In this document: piece after piece, positions 2,002 to 10,942 of the stretch
Position numbering within the stretch: position 1 is the first letter of the stretch
Layout: each line of letters starts with the position of its first letter
Source of the DNA: a virus
Taxonomy: Duplodnaviria; Heunggongvirae; Uroviricota; Caudoviricetes
IMG/VR virus record: IMGVR_UViG_3300028883_000047
Location: 1 to 11,680 of that record
Length of the DNA: 11,680 bases
Direction: 5' to 3' (one strand)
Position numbers and translations under genes: made by a program
The notes under the pieces: model-generated
Seen by the model: only the letters and a program-made list of their open reading frames with translations
Told to the model about the DNA's origin: nothing
Database searches by the model: none

Positions 2002-2079
2002 TGGTACCCACCCTCGGATTCGAACCGAGATACAAGAGGACTTAAATCTCCCCGCGATTGCCAATTAGCGTAGGTGGGC
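2002..2079 (-). tRNA. tRNA-Leu(TAA), short variable loop
   Basis: GCCCACC/GGTGGGT acceptor, Leu-type D loop AATTGGCAA, anticodon loop TTTAAGT (A31-C39 mismatch), 5-nt variable loop TGTAT, A73 and CCA. Confidence 0.8.
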
Positions 2080-2444: not shown

Positions 2445-3590
2445 TTAAAACATATCGTAGTAATTGTAACTCTTGGCTGGAACTTCTTTAGCCATTACAA
2501 GATATTCATCGGTTTCATATACAATCTGACCAGCAGACTCATATGCAACCTGAGTGGAAGCAATATAAATTTCCTCATTGTCGTCGTCATCATCGTCCAT
2601 GTCAATGTCTGCAGCTCTGAGTGCTGCTTTGACCTTTGAATTTTTGCTCGTGTGACTGCCCTTAGGTTTCAGTCTGATATACGTATAGTCATACGAACCT
2701 GAGGGCTTAGCGACGATCGCCTTCTGTGCAAGCTCTCGTTTTTCTTCGGTTCCCTTTTCAACGACTTTGATGATTTCAATTTCGGAACCAATCTGTTGAC
2801 GAACGTCGATGTTCAGTTCATCAATAATTTCATCAACAGGCGATCCGAACCGTAGATGTTCTTCAACGATTGATTGAAGCATATCGAAGCTAAAGATTTT
2901 AGAACGACGCGACAAATCAACGATATCTTTGATCGTTGTAACTGATACCCCATGGTCAGCACAGTATCCTTTGATACTAGCCTCGTCCAACTTCCTGTAA
3001 CGGAAATGATAGTAGATACGACTTGGACGGTTGAGCATGAAGTCGCTGATGTCGATCTCGCTATTCTCTGTCATGATGATCAGACGCTTAGTCTTATCAA
3101 CACCATCCATCAACGACAAAAGAGAATCTTGATGCGTCCCGTCCTGGTGCTTGGACGACGTATACATCTTTCCGAATTCATCAAATACAAGACAACACTC
3201 ACCAAGCGATTGGACGAATTGGTCAAACTGATCGCCAGCGTGAGCATCACGAACGAGAATAACCGGAAGACGGAGAGAGTCGATAACACTATTTGCCAAC
3301 AAAGACATGAACAGAGTTTTACCAGTACCTTTATCACCAGTCAAAAGGATACCAGTTGACATCGGACGATCTTTGTAGGTGGTGATACACTTCTCGACAC
3401 GTTCATGTGCCGTACCGTAAATCTTTTCGGGGATCTGGAGATGATCCTTTATAACAGTGAGATAAAAACCAGAGAACTGACTAAACTGAACTGCATATAC
3501 TCTTGGCGGTAGGTAGTCGAGTGCTGTTTCATCGCTGAGCTGAACAACAGAAACGTGTGTTCCATTGATCAGAAATTTAGTCTGCATCAT
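2445..3590 (-). CDS. AAA+ family ATPase
   Basis: 381 aa. Walker A GDKGTGKT, Walker B LVFDEF, and NRPSR arginine-finger region. Confidence 0.9.
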   Translation of the reverse strand: MMQTKFLINGTHVSVVQLSDETALDYLPPRVYAVQFSQFSGFYLTVIKDHLQIPEKIYGTAHERVEKCITTYKDRPMSTGILLTGDKGTGKTLFMSLLANSVIDSLRLPVILVRDAHAGDQFDQFVQSLGECCLVFDEFGKMYTSSKHQDGTHQDSLLSLMDGVDKTKRLIIMTENSEIDISDFMLNRPSRIYYHFRYRKLDEASIKGYCADHGVSVTTIKDIVDLSRRSKIFSFDMLQSIVEEHLRFGSPVDEIIDELNIDVRQQIGSEIEIIKVVEKGTEEKRELAQKAIVAKPSGSYDYTYIRLKPKGSHTSKNSKVKAALRAADIDMDDDDDDNEEIYIASTQVAYESAGQIVYETDEYLVMAKEVPAKSYNYYDMF

Positions 3591-4692: not shown

Positions 4693-5388
4693 TTAGCGAC
4701 CTAGGATCTCGTCAACTTCTTCCTGTGGTAGGAGTTGTGCTTCGTAGTTGCCGTATCCAATGTGACGCTCGATCTGATTGACATATGCTCGGAGATGGTT
4801 TCTGGAACCATTGAGCAAATTGTTCAGAGTGCGTTGAACGTCTGCACGGTCGGTTGATTTAAGACCGCAATCATCTCTTGTGTATAGTTCTACGTTTGCA
4901 TCTAGTATTTGCTGATTGCAGTAGTTGATGTCGATCATATCAAGCTCTTCGATGAATGCCCCAACGTACATTGCGTCAAGAACGCTCATTTCACCTTTTG
5001 TAACGAACTCATTAAACTTCTCAGTGAAGTATTCACTGTACTCAGCACCAGTGAACACACCTACATTATCGTTCGTCGATGGATCAACTACATCATATTT
5101 GTCGAGTAGTTTCTTTACTGCATCGGTGTGTTTTTGTTCTGAGTCGTCGATACGACCGAATGCTCTCGAGCGTGGATACATCTGACTGAAAACGATGTAC
5201 ACGTCACGCGCGAGTTTTTCTTCTTCCCGCATAAAGGTCAGATGCTGCTCTTCTGCAATTGTGAGATTTGCTGTGGTTTGGTTTTGTTGGCCACCTTGCC
5301 ATCCTCCCCATCCCTGACCCCAGCGGGCCATCAGAGGTGCGGAGGTGATCAGTGCAGCCGCCAATAATAGTGTTATTAGCTTTTTCAT
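4693..5388 (-). CDS. DUF2202 ferritin-like domain protein with signal peptide
   Basis: Motifs LTFMREEEKLARDVY, SEQKHTDAVKKLLDKY, GAFIEELD, GSRNHLRAY. N-terminal MKKLITLLLAAALITSAPLMA. SD AGGAGG. Confidence 0.88.
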   Translation of the reverse strand: MKKLITLLLAAALITSAPLMARWGQGWGGWQGGQQNQTTANLTIAEEQHLTFMREEEKLARDVYIVFSQMYPRSRAFGRIDDSEQKHTDAVKKLLDKYDVVDPSTNDNVGVFTGAEYSEYFTEKFNEFVTKGEMSVLDAMYVGAFIEELDMIDINYCNQQILDANVELYTRDDCGLKSTDRADVQRTLNNLLNGSRNHLRAYVNQIERHIGYGNYEAQLLPQEEVDEILGR

Positions 5389-5412
5389 GATTTTCCTCCT
5401 TGTAGCAATTAC

Positions 5413-5441
5413 AATATACTACACCCGTACTTATGGGACAA
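5413..5441 (-). promoter_or_regulatory. Sigma70-type promoter
   Basis: TTGTCC-17 nt-TATATT upstream of the DUF2202 gene. Confidence 0.5.
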
Positions 5442-5448
5442 CGAATAA

Positions 5449-5550
5449 ATTCTCCCACAGGGATCGAACCTGTACCACTTTACCATAAAGAGTCAGCCTA
5501 ACTGTTACTCAACTCAGGGGGAGTGTGTGCTACCATTACACCAAAGAGAA
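5449..5550 (-). ncRNA. tRNA-like RNA with an insertion in place of the anticodon loop
   Basis: Acceptor TTCTCTT/GGGAGAA, D arm GTGT-AATGGTA-GCAC, T arm ACAGG-TTCGATC-CCTGT. Anticodon stem CACT/AGTG encloses about 40 nt. No CCA. Confidence 0.65.
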
Positions 5551-5551
5551 A

Positions 5552-6076
5552 TTATGAATACTTTGCGATAATGTCCTTAATTCCGCGATTAGATGGAGGA
5601 AATGGATTGCTCGGTAAGGTGCTAATAAACTCTATCGACGTGATGGTCTCGCCCACAGGAGTAGTAGCGGTAGCGGTTTCATCAATATAGTCGACGGTTA
5701 CGGGTCCCACCGAACCAGAATCCCCCAAATATACATATTGACCGTTCGCCGCGACTTCACTACCATCCCATGTTCCTATTTTTACACTGGTTGTATCGCT
5801 ATAATTTATTTGAATGAAGTTTTGTCCAGCACTATTGCTTGGAGTGTTGTAATAACCAGTAAAAGTAGCTGTTATTCTACGAACGTTAGCTAAATTTGGG
5901 ATTGTTACCAGTGCTGTTACGGTGCTCCAATTTGGATTAGCATCACTGTAATATCCTCGTGTTGCATTCCAGCTAATCGCGTGGTTAATACTTTCAAATG
6001 CAGATGGAGCATCATTATTAGGAACATAGTAATCAGCTCCCACGCCCTGAATGTAACTCATGACCAAATACGACAT
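5552..6076 (-). CDS. Hypothetical protein (beta-rich, possibly virion-associated)
   Basis: 174 aa, SD AGGAG, late-type promoter upstream. Rich in Thr, Ser, Gly and Asn. Confidence 0.75.
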   Translation of the reverse strand: MSYLVMSYIQGVGADYYVPNNDAPSAFESINHAISWNATRGYYSDANPNWSTVTALVTIPNLANVRRITATFTGYYNTPSNSAGQNFIQINYSDTTSVKIGTWDGSEVAANGQYVYLGDSGSVGPVTVDYIDETATATTPVGETITSIEFISTLPSNPFPPSNRGIKDIIAKYS

Positions 6077-6102
6077 GTTTTTCTCCTAAGTTTGGGTTAT
6101 TA

Positions 6103-6110
6103 TATTTATG
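6103..6110 (-). promoter_or_regulatory. Putative late promoter CATAAATA
   Basis: ATAAATA core 27 nt upstream of ATG 6076. Confidence 0.5.
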
Positions 6111-6117
6111 GAGAAAT

Positions 6118-6194
6118 TGGCACCCCCGGAGAGATTCGAACTCCCGACTTCAACGTTCGAAGCGTTGCACTCTAGTCCACTGAGTTACGGAGGC
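6118..6194 (-). tRNA. tRNA-Arg(TCG)
   Basis: CAACG-CTTCGAA-CGTTG anticodon arm, A20, G73 and CCA. Confidence 0.92.
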
Positions 6195-6203
6195 AATAAA
6201 ATT

Positions 6204-6279
6204 TGGAGCGGGTGAAGGGACTCGAACCCTCAACATCTGACTTGGAAGGACAGCACTCTACCAATTGAGTTACACCCGC
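6204..6279 (-). tRNA. tRNA-Gly(TCC)
   Basis: GCGGGTG/CACCCGC acceptor, CTGTC-CTTCCAA-GTCAG, U73 and CCA. Confidence 0.95.
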
Positions 6280-6282
6280 ATA

Positions 6283-6406
6283 ACAAGACGCATTTTTGCA
6301 TGGCTGGTGTTCTACCATTGAACTACAGACCAACATTCATCGATCTGGTGGGGTTCGAACCCACAACCCCCAGCTTGGGATAGCATTATTGCTGTTAGCG
6401 TCTTAA
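6283..6406 (-). ncRNA. CAGCAA-scaffold element A enclosing a circularly permuted tRNA
   Basis: Order on the minus strand: AAGACGC..ACAGCAA, GCTGG (anticodon stem 3'), T arm, CAGATCG, linker, TGGTCTG, D arm GTTC-AATGGTA-GAAC, CCAGC (anticodon stem 5'), GCGTCTT. Confidence 0.75.
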
Positions 6407-6410
6407 AATC

Positions 6411-6520
6411 AACAAGGCACGTTTTTTGCGAACCTAGGCGTCCAAAGCCAGCCACGGACTCGAACCGTGTTTCGGGTGTTTTACAGACACATGCTTTTAA
6501 ATTGCTGTGCGTGCCTTTAA
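6411..6520 (-). ncRNA. CAGCAA-scaffold element B with anticodon arm (GTA) and T arm
   Basis: AAGGCACG/CGTGCCTT helix, ACAGCAA, GTGT-CTGTAAA-ACAC, CACGG-TTCGAGT-CCGTG. Confidence 0.7.
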
Positions 6521-6524
6521 TTTG

Positions 6525-6671
6525 TTACTTATTGTCTATACACTCTACAAATTCTTTCTTGCCGAGAGCACAGCGAATAACTTGCCACGCTACCCAACCA
6601 ACAAAGCCAATTGATGCAAAAACAACAAGCGTAAGGCCACCGATCATGGCCGCTGGATATAAAATTTCCAT
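6525..6671 (-). CDS. Small single-pass membrane protein (48 aa; absent from the ORF track)
   Basis: MEILYPAAMIGGLTLVVFASIGFVGWVAWQVIRCALGKKEFVECIDNK with SD GGAG 7 nt upstream. Confidence 0.75.
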   Translation of the reverse strand: MEILYPAAMIGGLTLVVFASIGFVGWVAWQVIRCALGKKEFVECIDNK

Positions 6672-6701
6672 GATTGAACTCCATATATTAAAGTTTTCTA
6701 A

Positions 6702-6739
6702 TATTTAGAAGTATCCATCAAAGAAATGAAAAAAGTCAA
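6702..6739 (-). promoter_or_regulatory. Putative tandem promoters: sigma70-like (TTGACT-18-GATACT) and late-type CTAAATA
   Basis: TTGACT at 6739-6734, GATACT at 6715-6710, CTAAATA at 6708-6702, all upstream of ATG 6671. Confidence 0.45.
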
Positions 6740-6820
6740 GGCACACTTGTCGGGATTGAACCGATCTATTCGATTTTTGAAATCAAACGTTATCCTAAGA
6801 TATTGCTGTTCGTGCCTTTA
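6735..6820 (-). ncRNA. CAGCAA-scaffold element C with anticodon arm (CAA) and T arm
   Basis: AAGGCAC/GTGCCTT helix, ACAGCAA, TTTGAT-TTCAAAA-ATCGAA, TCGG-TTCAATC-CCGA. Confidence 0.7.
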
Positions 6821-7252
6821 AATCGTTTTAATTGCTGCCATAATGACAACACATCCACTAGTGGTATCTTCTAGTTCCATTGAGTGGGTTTCGTTATGAT
6901 TGAATTCATATATGTGACCAAGCTGGACTTCTTCTGTCTGGCCATTCGCTGTTATAGTCGATTTACCAGTTGGTAAGATAACAGGAATTACGTATGTGGT
7001 GTCGGTGAATTTATCACCCAGCTGATCTGTGTGTGGTTCAGCTCCCTGACATACACTAAAATATACCCAATCAACTCGGTTAACATCAACTCCAGCAATT
7101 GCCGCAATTGACTGTTCCAACTCAGAACTAACAGCCCCGTGTTTTTGGAATTTTGCTGGCGTGTTTGTTTTGTAGTTTTCGTACTTGATCGTATCGGCAT
7201 GTGATACTACATGCTGGGGGATCTGTACGCTTCCGTGGTCGATTATATTCAT
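6818..7252 (-). CDS. Cupin/2OG-Fe(II) oxygenase-like protein (Asp/Asn beta-hydroxylase-like)
   Basis: HxD motif (EPHTD) and distal His (YEFNHNETHS) in a beta-strand-rich 144-aa protein. Confidence 0.65.
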   Translation of the reverse strand: MNIIDHGSVQIPQHVVSHADTIKYENYKTNTPAKFQKHGAVSSELEQSIAAIAGVDVNRVDWVYFSVCQGAEPHTDQLGDKFTDTTYVIPVILPTGKSTITANGQTEEVQLGHIYEFNHNETHSMELEDTTSGCVVIMAAIKTI

Positions 7253-7446
7253 TAGTGAACAGACTCGAACGCCTTTTCATAGACGAAGTCGCGGTGTTCT
7301 TCGTTCAACTCGTTGAGCTCGTCTTCCGTCAACTCTTCTCCGGTATCTTCCCAAACTGCGTATGCGATATATGCATCACAAAAGTCTGGATAGTCCCACA
7401 TATGGACATCTTCAACTTCAATGTCTGTTATATTATCGAGGTTCAT
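7252..7446 (-). CDS. Conserved acidic phage hypothetical protein
   Basis: 64 aa with DYPDFCDAYI motif. Stop/start overlaps with both neighbouring CDSs. Confidence 0.8.
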   Translation of the reverse strand: MNLDNITDIEVEDVHMWDYPDFCDAYIAYAVWEDTGEELTEDELNELNEEHRDFVYEKAFESVH

Positions 7447-7760
7447 TAAGCACCACCTGGTGAAATTTGTATAGGTATGTAGATGAATGCAGCTCCTTCT
7501 GTGAGCTGTACGGCTACATCAGCTTTGAGTATGCCCCTTTTGGAATCTTCAAGGTTGTTGTTACTTTCATCACACACTACTGTAAAATCATTTAGCTTGC
7601 GAGTTACTACAAGCGGGGATAGGTAATTGGTTATTGCAACTTTAAAGTTGTTACGCAAGAGCTGATCGTTGACCTCAAATAGAGCATGTTTAGCTAGCTC
7701 TATTAGATTGTCTTTGATGTTTTCAAGAACTTCTCTTTGACTGTCTTTCGTTACTTTCAT
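7446..7760 (-). CDS. Stand-alone tail sheath C-terminal domain-like protein
   Basis: LFEVND...F...I..YL...DFTVVCDESNN...ADVAV...FIYIPI resembles the C-terminal region of T4 gp18-type sheath proteins. Only 104 aa. Confidence 0.7.
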   Translation of the reverse strand: MKVTKDSQREVLENIKDNLIELAKHALFEVNDQLLRNNFKVAITNYLSPLVVTRKLNDFTVVCDESNNNLEDSKRGILKADVAVQLTEGAAFIYIPIQISPGGA

Positions 7761-7780
7761 CAGTTACCTTTCTTTTGGTT

Positions 7781-7865
7781 TGGTGGGCCCGGAGAGACTC
7801 GAACTCTCACGCCTCACGGCACTAGAACCTAAATCTAGCGTGTATACCAATTTCACCACAGGCCC
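7781..7865 (-). tRNA. tRNA-Leu(TAG), canonical long variable arm
   Basis: GGGCCTG/CGGGCCC acceptor, CTAGA-TTTAGGT-TCTAG, long variable arm, A73 and CCA. Confidence 0.95.
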
Positions 7866-7866
7866 G

Positions 7867-8127
7867 TTAGTTTATTGGATACAAGACGACGCACCGAGGA
7901 TGTTTTTGTTTAAACTCATCCCACTCGTCTTCTTCCATATCTGCATCTTCTGCCGACCATGATGGAGTCCATACTTCACCGCTCCAGGTCGTTTCAGCAA
8001 CGTAGATAGCATCATTATCAGCACCAGCGCATGGTGAGTATCCGTTACCTTCAGCATCCTTCTGCATGATTACATCAAGTTCAGGATCCATCTCGCTCAG
8101 CTGTTTTATCAGATCTTTTACTTTCAT
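7867..8127 (-). CDS. Conserved phage hypothetical protein
   Basis: MKVKDLIKQLSEMDPELDVIMQKDAEGNGYSP... Start moved to 8127 because the ORF-track extension to 8172 overlaps the RNase P RNA 3' end. Confidence 0.8.
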   Translation of the reverse strand: MKVKDLIKQLSEMDPELDVIMQKDAEGNGYSPCAGADNDAIYVAETTWSGEVWTPSWSAEDADMEEDEWDEFKQKHPRCVVLYPIN

Positions 8128-8136
8128 TTGTTCATC

Positions 8137-8327
8137 GTAACCGATAGCCAGGATTCTGTCAAGGGACATCATTCATCTATTTGCCACAACCCGTCCTCAT
8201 AGGGTAGAGCTTCCCTCGGACTGTTTGTGTTGCATAGGACTTTTATTTGTAGTAAAACGCCGTAGCTCCTACAACATGCTCCGCCTATGTCCTGAGCTTC
8301 CTCACCGTAGTGCGATGCCCTGGTTAC
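8137..8327 (-). ncRNA. rnpB: Minimal type-A-like RNase P RNA (catalytic domain only)
   Basis: P1 GTAACC/GGTTAC, P2 GGCATC/GATGTC, P3 CAC-TACG-GTG. P4 AGC-(U)-CAGGA/TCCTGGCT lies in GAGGAAGCTC and ACAGAATCCTGGCTATC contexts. J5/15 CAA, L15 AAACA/GGGTT, and TAGATGAATGA. Confidence 0.88.
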
Positions 8328-8331
8328 AATT

Positions 8332-8422: not shown

Positions 8423-8520
8423 GAGCGGCGCTTAATGCTACCGGATGGACTTGAACCACCAACAAGACGTTTTCACGCGTCCGTTCTACGTTGAACTACA
8501 GTGACACTCGCATACCGCTC
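8423..8520 (-). ncRNA. Degenerate tRNA-Phe(GAA)-like core enclosed by an outer helix
   Basis: Core 8436-8505 has D arm GTTC-AACGTA-GAAC, GACG-CGTGAAAA-CGTC, T arm GGTGG-TTCAAGT-CCATC and no CCA. Outer stem GAGCGG/CCGCTC. Confidence 0.6.
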
Positions 8521-10090: not shown

Positions 10091-10193
10091 AACAAGACGC
10101 ATCACCCCTGCCTTTGGGGCGAATATCCGTTGGCTGTTACACCGCCGGAATGGACTCGAACCATCAATTTTTGGTTTGCTGCTTGCGTCTTTA
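10091..10193 (-). ncRNA. CAGCAA-scaffold element D with T arm and two hairpins
   Basis: AAGACGCA/TGCGTCTT helix, GCAGCAA, GATGG-TTCGAGT-CCATT, CCG..CGG hairpin, GCCCC-AAAGGCA-GGGGT. Confidence 0.7.
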
Positions 10194-10299: not shown

Positions 10300-10385
10300 T
10301 GGTAGCGGGAGTAGGATTTGCACCTACGAAGCCTTGCGGCGGTGGGTTATGAGCCCAGCTACTTTGTCTACTTGTATATCCCGCG
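10300..10385 (-). tRNA. Initiator-type tRNA-fMet(CAT) with a long variable arm
   Basis: C1/T72 mismatch, GGG/CCC in the anticodon stem, loop CTCATAA, 14-nt variable region CGCCGCAAGGCTTC, T loop TGCAAAT, A73 and CCA. Confidence 0.82.
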
Positions 10386-10802: not shown

Positions 10803-10942
10803 AACAAGACACAATTTTTTCCGACAGGCGCCTTTACCAGACTTGGCCATACCCCCAAAGGATGATTGGTGGGGGCAGCGGGATTCGAACCACGCGAATA
10901 CCTGTTTTACCAAAGGAGTTGAGTTGCTGGTTGTGTCTTTAA
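10803..10942 (-). ncRNA. CAGCAA-scaffold element E enclosing a circularly permuted tRNA with encoded CCA
   Basis: Order on the minus strand: AAGACACAA..CCAGCAA, ACAGG, TATTC, T arm, TGCCCCC-A-CCA, 10-nt linker, GGGGGTA, D arm GCC..GGC, CCTGT, TTGTGTCTT. Confidence 0.82.

What the first reader, a model, noticed from the sequence alone, without database searches (positions are those of the whole stretch)
6283..6406. Second, independent permuted tRNA (element A)
Seen: same architecture as element E but unrelated in sequence. It reads TCCCAA-GCTGG, variable GGGTT, T arm GTGGG-TTCGAAC-CCCAC, acceptor CAGATCG plus A, linker TGAATGT, TGGTCTG, D arm GTTC-AATGGTA-GAAC, then CCAGC. Joining C after CCAGC to TCCCAA would give a canonical loop C-U-CCC-AA (Gly GGG), though the acceptor lacks Gly identity elements and there is no CCA. 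Two different tRNA bodies broken at the same place inside the same scaffold make a chance rearrangement unlikely.
Basis: seen in the sequence. Interest (0 to 1): 0.8.

Follow-up and report, generated by a model that had tools for sequence, protein, structure and literature searches.

The report
Phage Y-like RNA mimicking a tRNA
The flagged 120 bases are a real small-RNA gene of a large marine phage: a tRNA body whose ends sit where the anticodon loop should be, mounted on a conserved stem that accompanies a Ro60-like ring protein in many phages, so it is most likely a tRNA mimic and not a glycine tRNA waiting to be re-joined.

Summary
They form a complete tRNA body in permuted order: T arm, 7-bp acceptor stem closed by an 8-nt linker, D arm, 5-bp anticodon-type stem. 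This opens through A-rich strands into a 7-bp basal stem, with an unpaired CAGCAA on its 5' side.

It is not a chance rearrangement. The scaffold occurs in at least 117 viral contigs. There are 99 distinct full-length relatives with 94% pairing and compensatory changes in 25 of 28 pairs. Rfam's closest family is YrlA, the bacterial Y RNA (37.7 bits, below its cut-off).

All 50 records tested carry one DUF2828+DUF7788 protein. None has a Pfam TROVE match. Its predicted fold matches Ro60 rings best. In cultured phages (Felix O1-like, P100-like, Klebsiella, Bacillus, Campylobacter, Mycobacterium cluster E per my recollection) the same RNAs lie beside that gene.

Joining the flanks gives a canonical anticodon loop no more often than chance across the family, so the Gly(CCC) reading is not supported.

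Caveat: this phage's 75.7-kb fragment does not contain the protein.

It is a new variant of the Ro60/Y-RNA system. The scan reached the same reading for element E of this window.

The parts
6285..6404 (-). Whole element A: a Y-like RNA with a tRNA-mimic module (120 nt)
   Evidence: Sequence. Rfam YrlA 37.7 bits. Family model R1 matches over its full length, though the element was in the training set.
6398..6404 (-). Basal stem, 5' strand AAGACGC; pairs with 6285-6291
   Evidence: The pair is kept in 99% of cells in 99 relatives, and 5 of its 7 pairs covary. The stem sequence differs completely between cultured-phage lineages.
6389..6394 (-). Unpaired CAGCAA motif, proposed contact for the Ro60-like protein
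   Evidence: 94-100% conserved per position in 99 distinct relatives. Invariant in the Gabriela, EcoM2, KP13-26, FADO, P100plus and CP81 elements.
6370..6374 (-). 3' strand of the anticodon-type stem (GCUGG); pairs with 6303-6307
   Evidence: All 5 pairs covary in the family.
6348..6364 (-). T arm GUGGG-UUCGAAC-CCCAC
   Evidence: The GGUUCRA..CC positions are 97-100% conserved.
6326..6347 (-). Acceptor-type stem (CAGAUCG/UGGUCUG, 7 bp) closed by A + UGAAUGU. The predicted RNase P site is between 6333 and 6332. The discriminator-like A is at 6340.
   Evidence: All 7 pairs covary. Analogy with the 7-bp stem of M. smegmatis YrlA, which is cut by RNase P and receives CCA. Cleavage here is inferred, not shown.
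6309..6323 (-). D arm GUUC-AAUGGUA-GAAC, preceded by U8-A9 (6325-6324)
   Evidence: In the family U8 is 98%, A14 99% and G18 98% conserved.
6303..6307 (-). 5' strand of the anticodon-type stem (CCAGC)
6285..6302 (-). A-rich 3' strand (CAUGCAAAAAU) and basal stem 3' strand GCGUCUU
   Evidence: The A-rich run before the closing stem is conserved in the family.
6414..6517 (-). Sibling scaffold element, 9 nt upstream on the RNA strand (T arm plus an anticodon-arm-like hairpin)
   Evidence: (32.4 bits).
6738..6818 (-). Sibling scaffold element (T arm only)
10094..10191 (-). Sibling scaffold element (T arm plus other hairpins)
10806..10939 (-). Sibling element E: a second full tRNA-mimic module with an encoded A-CCA after the acceptor 3' strand
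   Evidence: 47.5 bits; not in the R1 training set.
6204..6279 (-). tRNA-Gly(UCC), 5 nt downstream on the RNA strand. The same tRNA array is probably transcribed as one precursor.
8129..8331 (-). Miniature RNase P RNA-like gene in the same array, a possible processing enzyme for the module
   Evidence: Rfam RF00010, 35.7 bits (cut-off 100), E 5.7e-10 in a narrow search; the P4 blocks are aligned.

Best explanation
Element A is a gene for a Y-RNA-like small RNA of the YrlA type. Its 5' and 3' ends pair into a 7-bp basal stem. An unpaired CAGCAA on the 5' side and an A-rich strand on the 3' side lie next to that stem. Together they form the docking site for a phage Ro60-like ring protein of the DUF2828+DUF7788 family (helical-repeat ring plus vWA domain). 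The rest of the RNA folds as a tRNA body without an anticodon loop. That body is handled by tRNA enzymes and is not read on the ribosome. It is made as part of the minus-strand tRNA precursor. The 7-bp acceptor-type stem is likely, but not shown, to be cut by RNase P before U6332. The 5' piece would then be trimmed and receive CCA at A6340, leaving two base-paired pieces as in M. smegmatis YrlA. By analogy with Ro60/Y RNA/PNPase particles, the RNP would tether or gate an RNA-processing activity during infection, perhaps tRNA quality control or a decoy against tRNA-directed host defences. Shown: the fold, the family, the covariation, and the co-occurrence with a Ro60-like fold. Inferred: binding, processing and function.
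For: Rfam's best family is YrlA over the full model. (2) The scaffold pattern hits at least 117 viral contigs. R1 finds 112 full-length matches, 99 distinct, with 94.3% paired cells and 25 of 28 pairs with compensatory change; slid controls give 34-46%. The shuffle control for the architecture parser is 3.6% against 41%. (3) CAGCAA is 94-100% conserved and unpaired, while the basal stem changes sequence between lineages. (4) 50 of 50 records with the RNA carry exactly one DUF7788 match in a roughly 500-aa frame, including 20 of 20 records at least 90% complete. TROVE is in 0 of 50 and RtcB in 3 of 51. The protein occurs in 711 of 50,697 GenBank phage records. In 46 of 118 fetched loci the gene lies on the same strand, often 25-1400 nt away. 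(5) The AlphaFold model of the protein has pLDDT 84 and pTM 0.83. Its top 13 PDB matches are all Ro60: phage phiLo 9KOP at E 2.7e-9 and TM 0.55-0.59, then D. radiodurans, Xenopus and human. A DxSxS MIDAS motif is invariant. (6) Starting from the protein instead of the RNA, CAGCAA elements lie right beside the gene in Gabriela, EcoM2, KP13-26, FADO, P100plus and CP81. T4 and T5 gave no R1 match beyond tandem-tRNA artefacts, and the T4 and T5 stretches fetched contain no scaffold element. (7) Published precedent: YrlA with a 7-bp acceptor stem is cut by RNase P and gains CCA (PMC4201824). Phage phiLo Ro60 binds Yrl RNAs and host PNPase (PMC12135203). In the P100-like phage CKA15 very abundant unannotated RNAs lie upstream of the Rsr-like gene (PMC12282133). 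(8) N-CCA follows the acceptor 3' strand in 22 of 99 relatives, against about 1.6% expected. This record encodes a CCA-adding enzyme homologue and an RNase P RNA-like gene.
Against: The Ro60-like gene is not in this phage's 75.7-kb record, nor in 2.4 kb beyond its end. The record is only about 24% of the genome. In three jumbo records the RNA and the gene lie 50-100 kb or more apart. The nearest relatives by the neighbouring AAA ATPase have neither the protein nor the scaffold. That fits co-occurrence but does not show that this phage has the protein. The Rfam YrlA score is below the gathering cut-off, and the YrlA motif GNCGAA is replaced by CAGCAA. No binding, expression or processing data exist for this element. 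The records tested for co-occurrence were found through the RNA pattern, so only the cultured-phage check runs the other way.
Confidence: 0.75

Rival explanations
1. It is a true circularly permuted tRNA gene. The transcript is cut at both flanks of the anticodon-type stem and in the linker. The ends are then ligated, through a circular intermediate or by RtcB, to give a decoding tRNA-Gly(CCC).
For: Joining C6302 to UCCCAA gives the canonical loop CUCCCAA. ARAGORN then calls tRNA-Gly(CCC) on the de-permuted sequence. The tRNA body is intact. The phage has a CCA-adding enzyme homologue.
Against: A canonical loop on joining is not conserved: 12 of 54 against 8.5 +/- 2.6 for shuffled flanks. Y-U follows the stem in 5 of 54. 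The conserved parts are the basal stem and CAGCAA, which such a pathway would discard. RtcB is in 3 of 51 records and none is in this record. Sibling elements in the same scaffold carry only a T arm and cannot become tRNAs. The array already holds tRNA-Gly(UCC) and tRNA-Gly(GCC). Known permuted tRNA genes rely on the archaeal/eukaryotic splicing endonuclease, which bacteria are not known to have (established knowledge).
Confidence: 0.05
2. It is a two-piece, chargeable tRNA-like RNA. [quoted passage not shown] For element A this would be with alanine, because of G3:U70, G2:C71 and A73.
For: The acceptor stem reads U1:G72, G2:C71, G3:U70 with A73. G3:U70 is the main AlaRS determinant (established knowledge). 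N-CCA is enriched in the family, 22 of 99. M. smegmatis YrlA gains CCA in vivo. The phage has a CCA-adding enzyme homologue.
Against: G3:U70 occurs in only 4 of 99 relatives, so it is not a family trait and may be chance. Encoded CCA could simply be inherited from tRNA genes, which carry CCA in this phage. No charging has been shown for any YrlA.
Confidence: 0.1
3. It is a free-standing tRNA decoy that soaks up host tRNA-cutting or tRNA-modifying enzymes. It acts independently of any Ro60-like protein, which this phage may lack.
For: No Ro60-like gene is found in 78 kb of this phage. The element sits in a tRNA array of a phage that also carries unusual tRNAs.
Against: There is no anticodon loop, which is the usual target of anticodon nucleases. 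The invariant CAGCAA and basal stem imply a dedicated partner. RNA and protein co-occur in 50 of 50 records.
Confidence: 0.07
4. It is a functionless relic: the junction of two tandem tRNA copies that lost their outer halves.
For: A tandem duplicate would automatically give complementary acceptor and anticodon strands. Chen et al. warn that tRNA dimers imitate YrlA. R1 and the Rfam model do hit tandem tRNAs weakly.
Against: The flanks are not tRNA halves. They are the conserved CAGCAA and basal-stem scaffold shared by six elements of this record and by 99 distinct relatives with compensatory changes. The de-permuted body is only 64-69% identical to any tRNA of the window.
Confidence: 0.03

Closest known systems
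YrlA of Mycobacterium smegmatis and Salmonella Typhimurium (bacterial Y RNA, Rfam RF02553; Chen et al. 2014, PMC4201824)
   Same: A tRNA-like module with T arm, D arm and a closed acceptor-type stem. The RNA's own ends are at the anticodon-stem position and lead into a stem with a conserved single-stranded motif on the 5' side. The M. smegmatis RNA has a 7-bp acceptor stem, is cut by RNase P and gains CCA. Several Y RNAs occur per locus, some with only a T arm (YrlB).
   Different: The motif is CAGCAA, not GNCGAAN0-1G. The partner family is DUF2828+DUF7788, not a Pfam TROVE protein. The Rfam score is 37.7 against a cut-off of 69. The copies are scattered in a phage tRNA array and are not within 4 kb of the protein in this record.
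Thermus phage phiLo Ro60 with Yrl1/Yrl2 (PMC12135203; PDB 9KOP, 9L5Y)
   Same: A phage-encoded Ro60 ring plus phage-encoded Y-like RNAs next to the gene. It is the best structural match of the DUF2828+DUF7788 model.
   Different: phiLo Ro60 is catalogued as a TROVE-domain Ro60 (PDB 9KOP title; found as UniProt's Ro60 homologue), and its RNAs carry a CGAA motif. No tRNA-like module is described for Yrl1/2 (the term does not occur in the paper). Sequence identity to the family here is about 15%.
Abundant unannotated RNAs upstream of the Rsr-like gene CKA15_055 of the P100-like Listeria phage CKA15 (PMC12282133)
   Same: Probably the same family. P100plus has three CAGCAA scaffold elements 75-340 nt upstream of the orthologous DUF2828 gene. 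The authors guessed these RNAs were Y RNAs.
   Different: The P100 elements are short (56-108 nt) and have no tRNA module. The paper gives no motif or structure. I did not match coordinates between CKA15 and P100plus.
Circularly permuted tRNA genes of Cyanidioschyzon merolae and other algae and archaea (from my own knowledge; not read here)
   Same: The 3' half lies upstream of the 5' half in one transcript, and the break is in the anticodon region.
   Different: Those are matured through a bulge-helix-bulge motif, the splicing endonuclease and a circular intermediate into decoding tRNAs. Here the conserved flanks form a Y-RNA-type stem, and the family does not conserve an anticodon loop.
Two-piece tmRNA from permuted ssrA genes (alpha-proteobacteria, cyanobacteria; from my own knowledge)
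   Same: A permuted tRNA-like domain processed into two base-paired pieces, with G3:U70-dependent alanine charging.
   Different: There is no tag reading frame and there are no pseudoknots. ARAGORN, which detects permuted tmRNA, calls none here.

Membership tests
YrlA (Rfam RF02553) | Score at or above the curated gathering cut-off (69 bits) | tested here: not met
   37.7 bits, E 2e-5, full model. Note that the TROVE-type mycobacteriophage Bxz1 also reaches only 32.5 bits next to its TROVE gene, so the cut-off excludes accepted phage Y RNAs too.
YrlA (Rfam RF02553) | tRNA-like module: T arm, D arm, closed acceptor-type stem, with the RNA ends at the anticodon-stem position | tested here: met
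   Tertiary-contact residues U8, A14, G18-G19, UUCGA and A15:U48 are present.
YrlA (Rfam RF02553) | GNCGAAN0-1G motif near the 5' end | tested here: not met
   The element has CAGCAA at that place. Bxz1 has GCCGAG / GGCCGAAGG.
YrlA (Rfam RF02553) | Encoded within about 4 kb of a TROVE-domain Ro60 gene, on the same strand | tested here: not met
   There is no TROVE match in the 75.7-kb record or in 50 related records.
YrlA (Rfam RF02553) | Bound by Ro60/Rsr in vivo | not testable with these tools
   Needs immunoprecipitation or EMSA.
   R1 gives 93.6 bits, but the element was in the training set. Element E, which was not in the training set, scores 47.5 bits.
   True for 50 of 50 other records. 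Not found in this record, which is about 24% of the genome.
Circularly permuted tRNA genes | 3' half upstream of 5' half, and the joined product folds as a tRNA | tested here: met
   ARAGORN calls tRNA-Gly(CCC) on the de-permuted sequence.
Circularly permuted tRNA genes | Break point yields a canonical 7-nt anticodon loop, conserved among homologues | tested here: not met
   Met for this element only. In the family it is 12 of 54 against 8.5 +/- 2.6 by chance.
Circularly permuted tRNA genes | Bulge-helix-bulge junction and splicing endonuclease/ligase, with a circular intermediate | not tested
   I saw no conserved bulge-helix-bulge by eye. RtcB is in 3 of 51 records. Circular RNA needs RNA data; no RNA holder is listed.
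Two-piece tmRNA | Tag-peptide reading frame and a tmRNA call | tested here: not met
   ARAGORN reports no tmRNA in the window.

The most novel reading that the evidence does not exclude
[quoted passage not shown] It would be alanine-accepting, through G3:U70, G2:C71 and A73. It would stay permanently tethered by its anticodon-side ends to a Ro60-like ring. That would make a charged tRNA mimic delivered to a protein machine instead of a codon. Alternatively, the halves are really re-joined into a decoding tRNA-Gly(CCC), which would be the first permuted tRNA gene in a bacterial virus.
Probability: 0.1. Interest if true: 0.85.

Novelty: new variant of a known kind. Interest (0 to 1): 0.55.

Why it matters
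Ro60 and Y RNAs are known from animals, some bacteria and a few phages, and what they do in bacteria is still poorly understood. Here the tRNA-mimic design recurs with a different recognition motif (CAGCAA) and a different, unannotated protein family (DUF2828+DUF7788). It is found in more than a hundred uncultured large phages. It is also found in easily handled laboratory phages: Felix O1-like coliphages, Listeria P100, Klebsiella, Bacillus and Campylobacter phages, and Mycobacterium phage Gabriela (cluster E by my recollection; its "Ro-like RNA binding protein" label is from the record). That gives tractable systems for asking what a Ro60/Y-RNA particle does during infection and why it carries a tRNA body. 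It also explains unannotated, very abundant phage RNAs. Finally, it keeps genome annotators from calling these elements broken or permuted tRNAs.

Tried and rejected
- **Pfam TROVE.** No match in the own record or in 50 related records. The partner is therefore not a catalogued Ro60.
- **DUF2828 and DUF7788 in the own record.** No match.
- **Extending the record.** A contig encoding the same 139-aa protein adds only 2.4 kb, with no Ro60-like gene.
- **Relatives found through the neighbouring AAA ATPase.** The 344-kb complete and 293-kb records have neither the protein nor the scaffold. They do not tell us whether this phage has the gene.
- **Sequence profile of the protein family against PDB sequences.** Only weak vWA matches, no Ro60. 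The relationship appeared only at the fold level.
- **RtcB as an obligate partner.** Present in 3 of 51 records.
- **Recent derivation of the cargo from a tRNA of the same array.** The best identity is 64-69% to several unrelated tRNAs. My recollection that it resembles Gly tRNAs is only a lead.
- **Megablast of 5000-8000 against GenBank phages.** It hit only a tRNA-Gly of Acinetobacter phage 133.
- **T4 rnaC/rnaD and T5 RNAI/RNAIII/RNA1.** These are stable RNAs of unknown function in tRNA clusters. They have no CAGCAA scaffold and no R1 match beyond tandem-tRNA artefacts.
- **Sequencing runs.** No RNA holder is listed.
- **Literature.** I found no paper on DUF2828 or DUF7788 as an RNA partner, or on the CAGCAA motif.
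- **Supplement of Chen et al. 2014.** It is not held, so I could not see which 22 phages they listed.
Full report
**What is there.** The window is the first 11.7 kb of a 75.7-kb IMG/VR virus record that CheckV rates at 24% complete. It came from a marine-sediment sample. Nearly everything in the window is on the minus strand. That includes 24 ARAGORN tRNAs plus some extra Rfam tRNA matches, small ORFs, an AAA ATPase, a PD-(D/E)XK nuclease and a tail-sheath-like fragment.

The order is as follows:
- a basal-stem strand AAGACGC, then UAA, then CAGCAA and a 14-nt spacer;
- GCUGG and the variable loop GGGUU;
- the T arm GUGGG-UUCGAAC-CCCAC;
- CAGAUCG, then A, the linker UGAAUGU, and UGGUCUG;
- UA and the D arm GUUC-AAUGGUA-GAAC;
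- A, CCAGC, an A-rich strand, and the closing strand GCGUCUU.

The acceptor-type stem has 7 bp, the anticodon-type stem 5, the T stem 5 and the D stem 4. The residues that build the tRNA elbow are in place: U8, A14, G18-G19, the UUCGA T loop and an A15:U48 Levitt pair. ARAGORN does not call a tRNA because the order is permuted.

**What Rfam says.** The only family that matches is YrlA (RF02553), the bacterial Y RNA. The match covers model positions 1-114 at 6279-6393(-), with 37.7 bits and E 2e-5 for the whole window. The T arm, closed acceptor stem and D arm align well. The basal part aligns poorly, and the score is under the 69-bit cut-off.

YrlA is exactly this kind of permuted tRNA. Chen et al. 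2014 (PMC4201824) showed that Ro60-bound Y RNAs of bacteria and of 22 phages carry a tRNA-like domain whose acceptor stem is closed by a loop. The RNA's own ends emerge where the anticodon arm would be and continue into a stem with a conserved 5' motif, GNCGAAN0-1G. The M. smegmatis RNA has a 7-bp acceptor stem, is cut by RNase P in vitro and in vivo, and acquires CCA.

**The scaffold family.** The record holds six elements with the same frame on the minus strand: AAGRCRC, three bases, CAGCAA, a cargo, an A-rich run and GYGYCUU. Five of them are in the window.
- Element A and element E (10806-10939) carry a whole tRNA body.
- The other four carry only a T arm, other hairpins, or nothing.

A pattern made from the scaffold plus a T loop hit at least 117 IMG/VR contigs, mostly 100-400 kb. 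In those loci I found 172 scaffold elements, 131 of them distinct. Of the distinct ones, 54 pass a strict test for the full permuted-tRNA architecture. Only 3.6% pass when their interiors are shuffled with the T arm kept in place.

An alignment of 23 of them gives 96% paired cells and 20 of 28 pairs with changes on both sides. A covariance model built from that alignment (R1) finds 112 full-length matches, 99 distinct, in 100 sources. These show 94.3% paired cells and compensatory changes in 25 of 28 pairs, against 34-46% pairing when partners are slid. Those alignments were selected for, or fitted to, the structure, so the percentages lean towards it. Even so, every acceptor, anticodon-type and D-stem position takes four to six different pair types, which selection alone cannot produce. 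The unpaired CAGCAA is 94-100% conserved per position. U8, A14, G18 and the T loop are 97-100% conserved.

**The partner protein.** Clustering all ORFs of the fetched loci showed one roughly 500-aa family in 46 of 118 loci. It lies on the same strand as the RNAs and often 25-1400 nt away. It is DUF2828 plus DUF7788 with weak vWA matches and an invariant DxSxS MIDAS motif.
- All 50 whole records tested have exactly one DUF7788 match, including 20 of 20 records at least 90% complete.
- None has a Pfam TROVE match, and RtcB is in 3 of 51.
- In GenBank phages the protein occurs in 711 of 50,697 records, so 50 of 50 is a very strong association.

A sequence profile finds no Ro60 in the PDB. The AlphaFold model (pLDDT 84, pTM 0.83) tells a different story. 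Its thirteen best structural matches are all Ro60 proteins over roughly 500-580 alignment columns. They are led by the Thermus phage phiLo Ro60 (9KOP, E 2.7e-9, TM 0.55-0.59) and followed by D. radiodurans Rsr, Xenopus Ro and human Ro60. The protein is therefore a Ro60-like ring with a vWA domain. Phage annotators already label some orthologues as a Ro-like RNA binding protein.

**The reverse test, starting from the protein in cultured phages.** CAGCAA elements lie next to the gene in every lineage I opened except Vibrio phage K566 (unclear, see below):
- three directly downstream in Mycobacterium phage Gabriela, one with a tRNA module (R1 50 bits);
- four downstream in Klebsiella phage KP13-26 (R1 65.7 and 50.2 bits);
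- five upstream in Bacillus phage FADO (62 and 52.8 bits);
- four in the tRNA array that follows the gene in the Felix O1-like phage EcoM2 (40.6 bits);
- three short ones 75-340 nt upstream in Listeria phage P100plus;
- two upstream in Campylobacter phage CP81.

The basal stem sequence differs completely between these lineages while CAGCAA stays the same. T4 and T5 have only tandem-tRNA artefacts or no match. Vibrio phage K566 was unclear.

For comparison, mycobacteriophage Bxz1 has a genuine TROVE protein. Upstream of it lies a tRNA-like RNA with a long GC-rich stem and GCCGAG/GGCCGAAGG motifs, and no CAGCAA. It too scores only 32.5 bits with the Rfam model. So there are two parallel classes: TROVE with CGAA, and DUF2828+DUF7788 with CAGCAA. 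I found no paper describing the second class. The nearest is a multi-omics study of the P100-like phage CKA15. It reports extremely abundant unannotated RNAs within 2 kb upstream of an HHpred-Rsr-like gene, finds that protein in purified virions, and guesses that the RNAs are Y RNAs (PMC12282133). I did not match its coordinates to P100plus.

**Is it a tRNA that gets re-joined?** For element A, joining C6302 to UCCCAA gives CUCCCAA, and ARAGORN then calls tRNA-Gly(CCC). Several results argue against this as the function:
- Across 54 distinct relatives, any joining offset yields a Y32-U33...R37 loop in only 12, against 8.5 +/- 2.6 with shuffled flanks.
- Y-U follows the stem in only 5 of 54.
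- Selection acts on the parts such a pathway would discard, namely the basal stem and CAGCAA.
- Sibling elements in the same scaffold have no tRNA body.
- A phage RNA ligase of the RtcB type is rare in these records.
- The de-permuted body is only 64-69% identical to any tRNA of the window, so it is not a recent copy.

I therefore read the loop-like flanks as coincidence or an old remnant.

**Likely processing.** The element lies 9 nt after a sibling element and 5 nt before tRNA-Gly(UCC), so it is probably cut out of a tRNA precursor. Its 7-bp acceptor stem stacked on the T arm is the classic RNase P substrate, with U at position -1. The same array holds a miniature RNase P RNA-like gene at 8129-8331(-): RF00010, 35.7 bits, E 5.7e-10 in a narrow search, with the P4 blocks aligned. 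The record also encodes a 381-aa CCA-adding/repair enzyme homologue. Its best NCBIfam model scores E 8e-101 but falls below the equivalog cut-off.

In the family, N-CCA follows the acceptor 3' strand in 22 of 99 elements, where about 1.6% is expected. Element E has it; element A does not. Encoded CCA could be inherited from tRNA genes, which carry it in this phage. Processing into two paired pieces with a CCA end, as in M. smegmatis YrlA, is thus plausible but unproven.

Element A's acceptor stem has G2:C71, G3:U70 and A73, the alanine identity set. Only 4 of 99 relatives have G3:U70, so I treat it as a curiosity worth one charging assay.

**The main weakness.** The Ro60-like gene is not in this phage's 75.7 kb or in the 2.4 kb that another assembly adds. 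In most records the RNA and the gene lie within 10 kb. In three jumbo records (185, 291 and 314 kb) they are 50-100 kb or more apart, so absence from a quarter of a roughly 300-kb genome is not informative. The closest relatives by the neighbouring AAA ATPase lack both the scaffold and the protein. That agrees with the co-occurrence rule but does not settle this phage.

**Verdict.** Element A is a real, conserved small-RNA gene of the Y-RNA (YrlA) kind. It belongs to a large, uncatalogued phage family defined by a CAGCAA scaffold and a DUF2828+DUF7788 Ro60-like partner. It works like YrlA but fails three of YrlA's defining features: the Rfam score, the GNCGAA motif and a TROVE neighbour. I therefore file it as a new variant, not a member. 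An earlier follow-up of this scan reached the same reading for element E of the same window (e1-5385944). I re-derived the evidence independently here and added the family-wide break-point test, the TROVE/CGAA versus DUF2828/CAGCAA contrast, and the cultured-phage examples.

Noticed in passing
window 8129-8331 (-): RNase P class A RNA-like sequence of about 200 nt. RF00010 gives 35.7 bits against a cut-off of 100, E 5.7e-10 in a narrow search. The P4 strands align and most peripheral helices are deleted. It sits inside the tRNA array.
   Followed up: partly
own record G000:51286-52431 (-), outside the window: A 381-aa CCA-adding/repair enzyme homologue. The NCBIfam model for the multifunctional CCA protein gives E 8e-101, below the equivalog cut-off. 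Pfam finds PolyA_pol plus its RNA-binding domain.
   Followed up: partly
own record G000:44838-44896 (-), outside the window: A sixth CAGCAA scaffold element, only 59 nt, with no T arm. It lies far from the tRNA array of the window.
   Followed up: no
window 2445-3590 (-): An AAA ATPase (phrog_2376). Its homologues recur within 0.4-2.8 kb of CAGCAA elements in 20 other loci and sit directly before the DUF2828 gene in L041. Pairing of an AAA+ ATPase with a vWA protein recalls MoxR-vWA pairs, so it may be a third component.
   Followed up: partly
window 2002-2079 (-): ARAGORN calls a tRNA with anticodon UUA, which would read the UAA stop codon (a suppressor type).
   Followed up: no
window 10303-10385, 8436-8505, 5449-5550 (-): Rfam tRNA matches of 30-37 bits that ARAGORN did not call. 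The one at 5449-5550 is 102 nt long and may carry an insertion.
   Followed up: no
L123 (Listeria phage P100plus) 5842-7053: An RtcB RNA ligase gene lies 1.3 kb downstream of the Ro60-like gene, echoing the Salmonella rsr-yrlBA-rtcBA operon. Only 3 of 51 metagenomic records have RtcB. In the related phage CKA15 the Ro60-like protein was detected in purified virions (PMC12282133).
   Followed up: partly
L128 (phage T5) 285-645 and L127 (phage T4) 1909-2172: The classic stable RNAs of unknown function in tRNA clusters are T5 RNAIII, RNAI and the tRNA-like RNA1, and T4 rnaC/rnaD. They lack the CAGCAA scaffold, so they are a different, still unexplained kind.
   Followed up: partly
L154 1501-1603 (-) and L155 1501-1614 (-): Relatives of this phage (found by the AAA ATPase) have permuted-tRNA-like matches to R1 of 45 and 33 bits without CAGCAA or the basal stem. 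One has ACCA after the acceptor strand. They may be tandem tRNAs or a scaffold-less variant.
   Followed up: no
L124 (Campylobacter phage CP81) 2803-2951: Two CAGCAA elements overlap a 45-aa CDS annotated as a hypothetical protein (ORF140). The same may be true of small CDSs annotated in other phages at these places.
   Followed up: no
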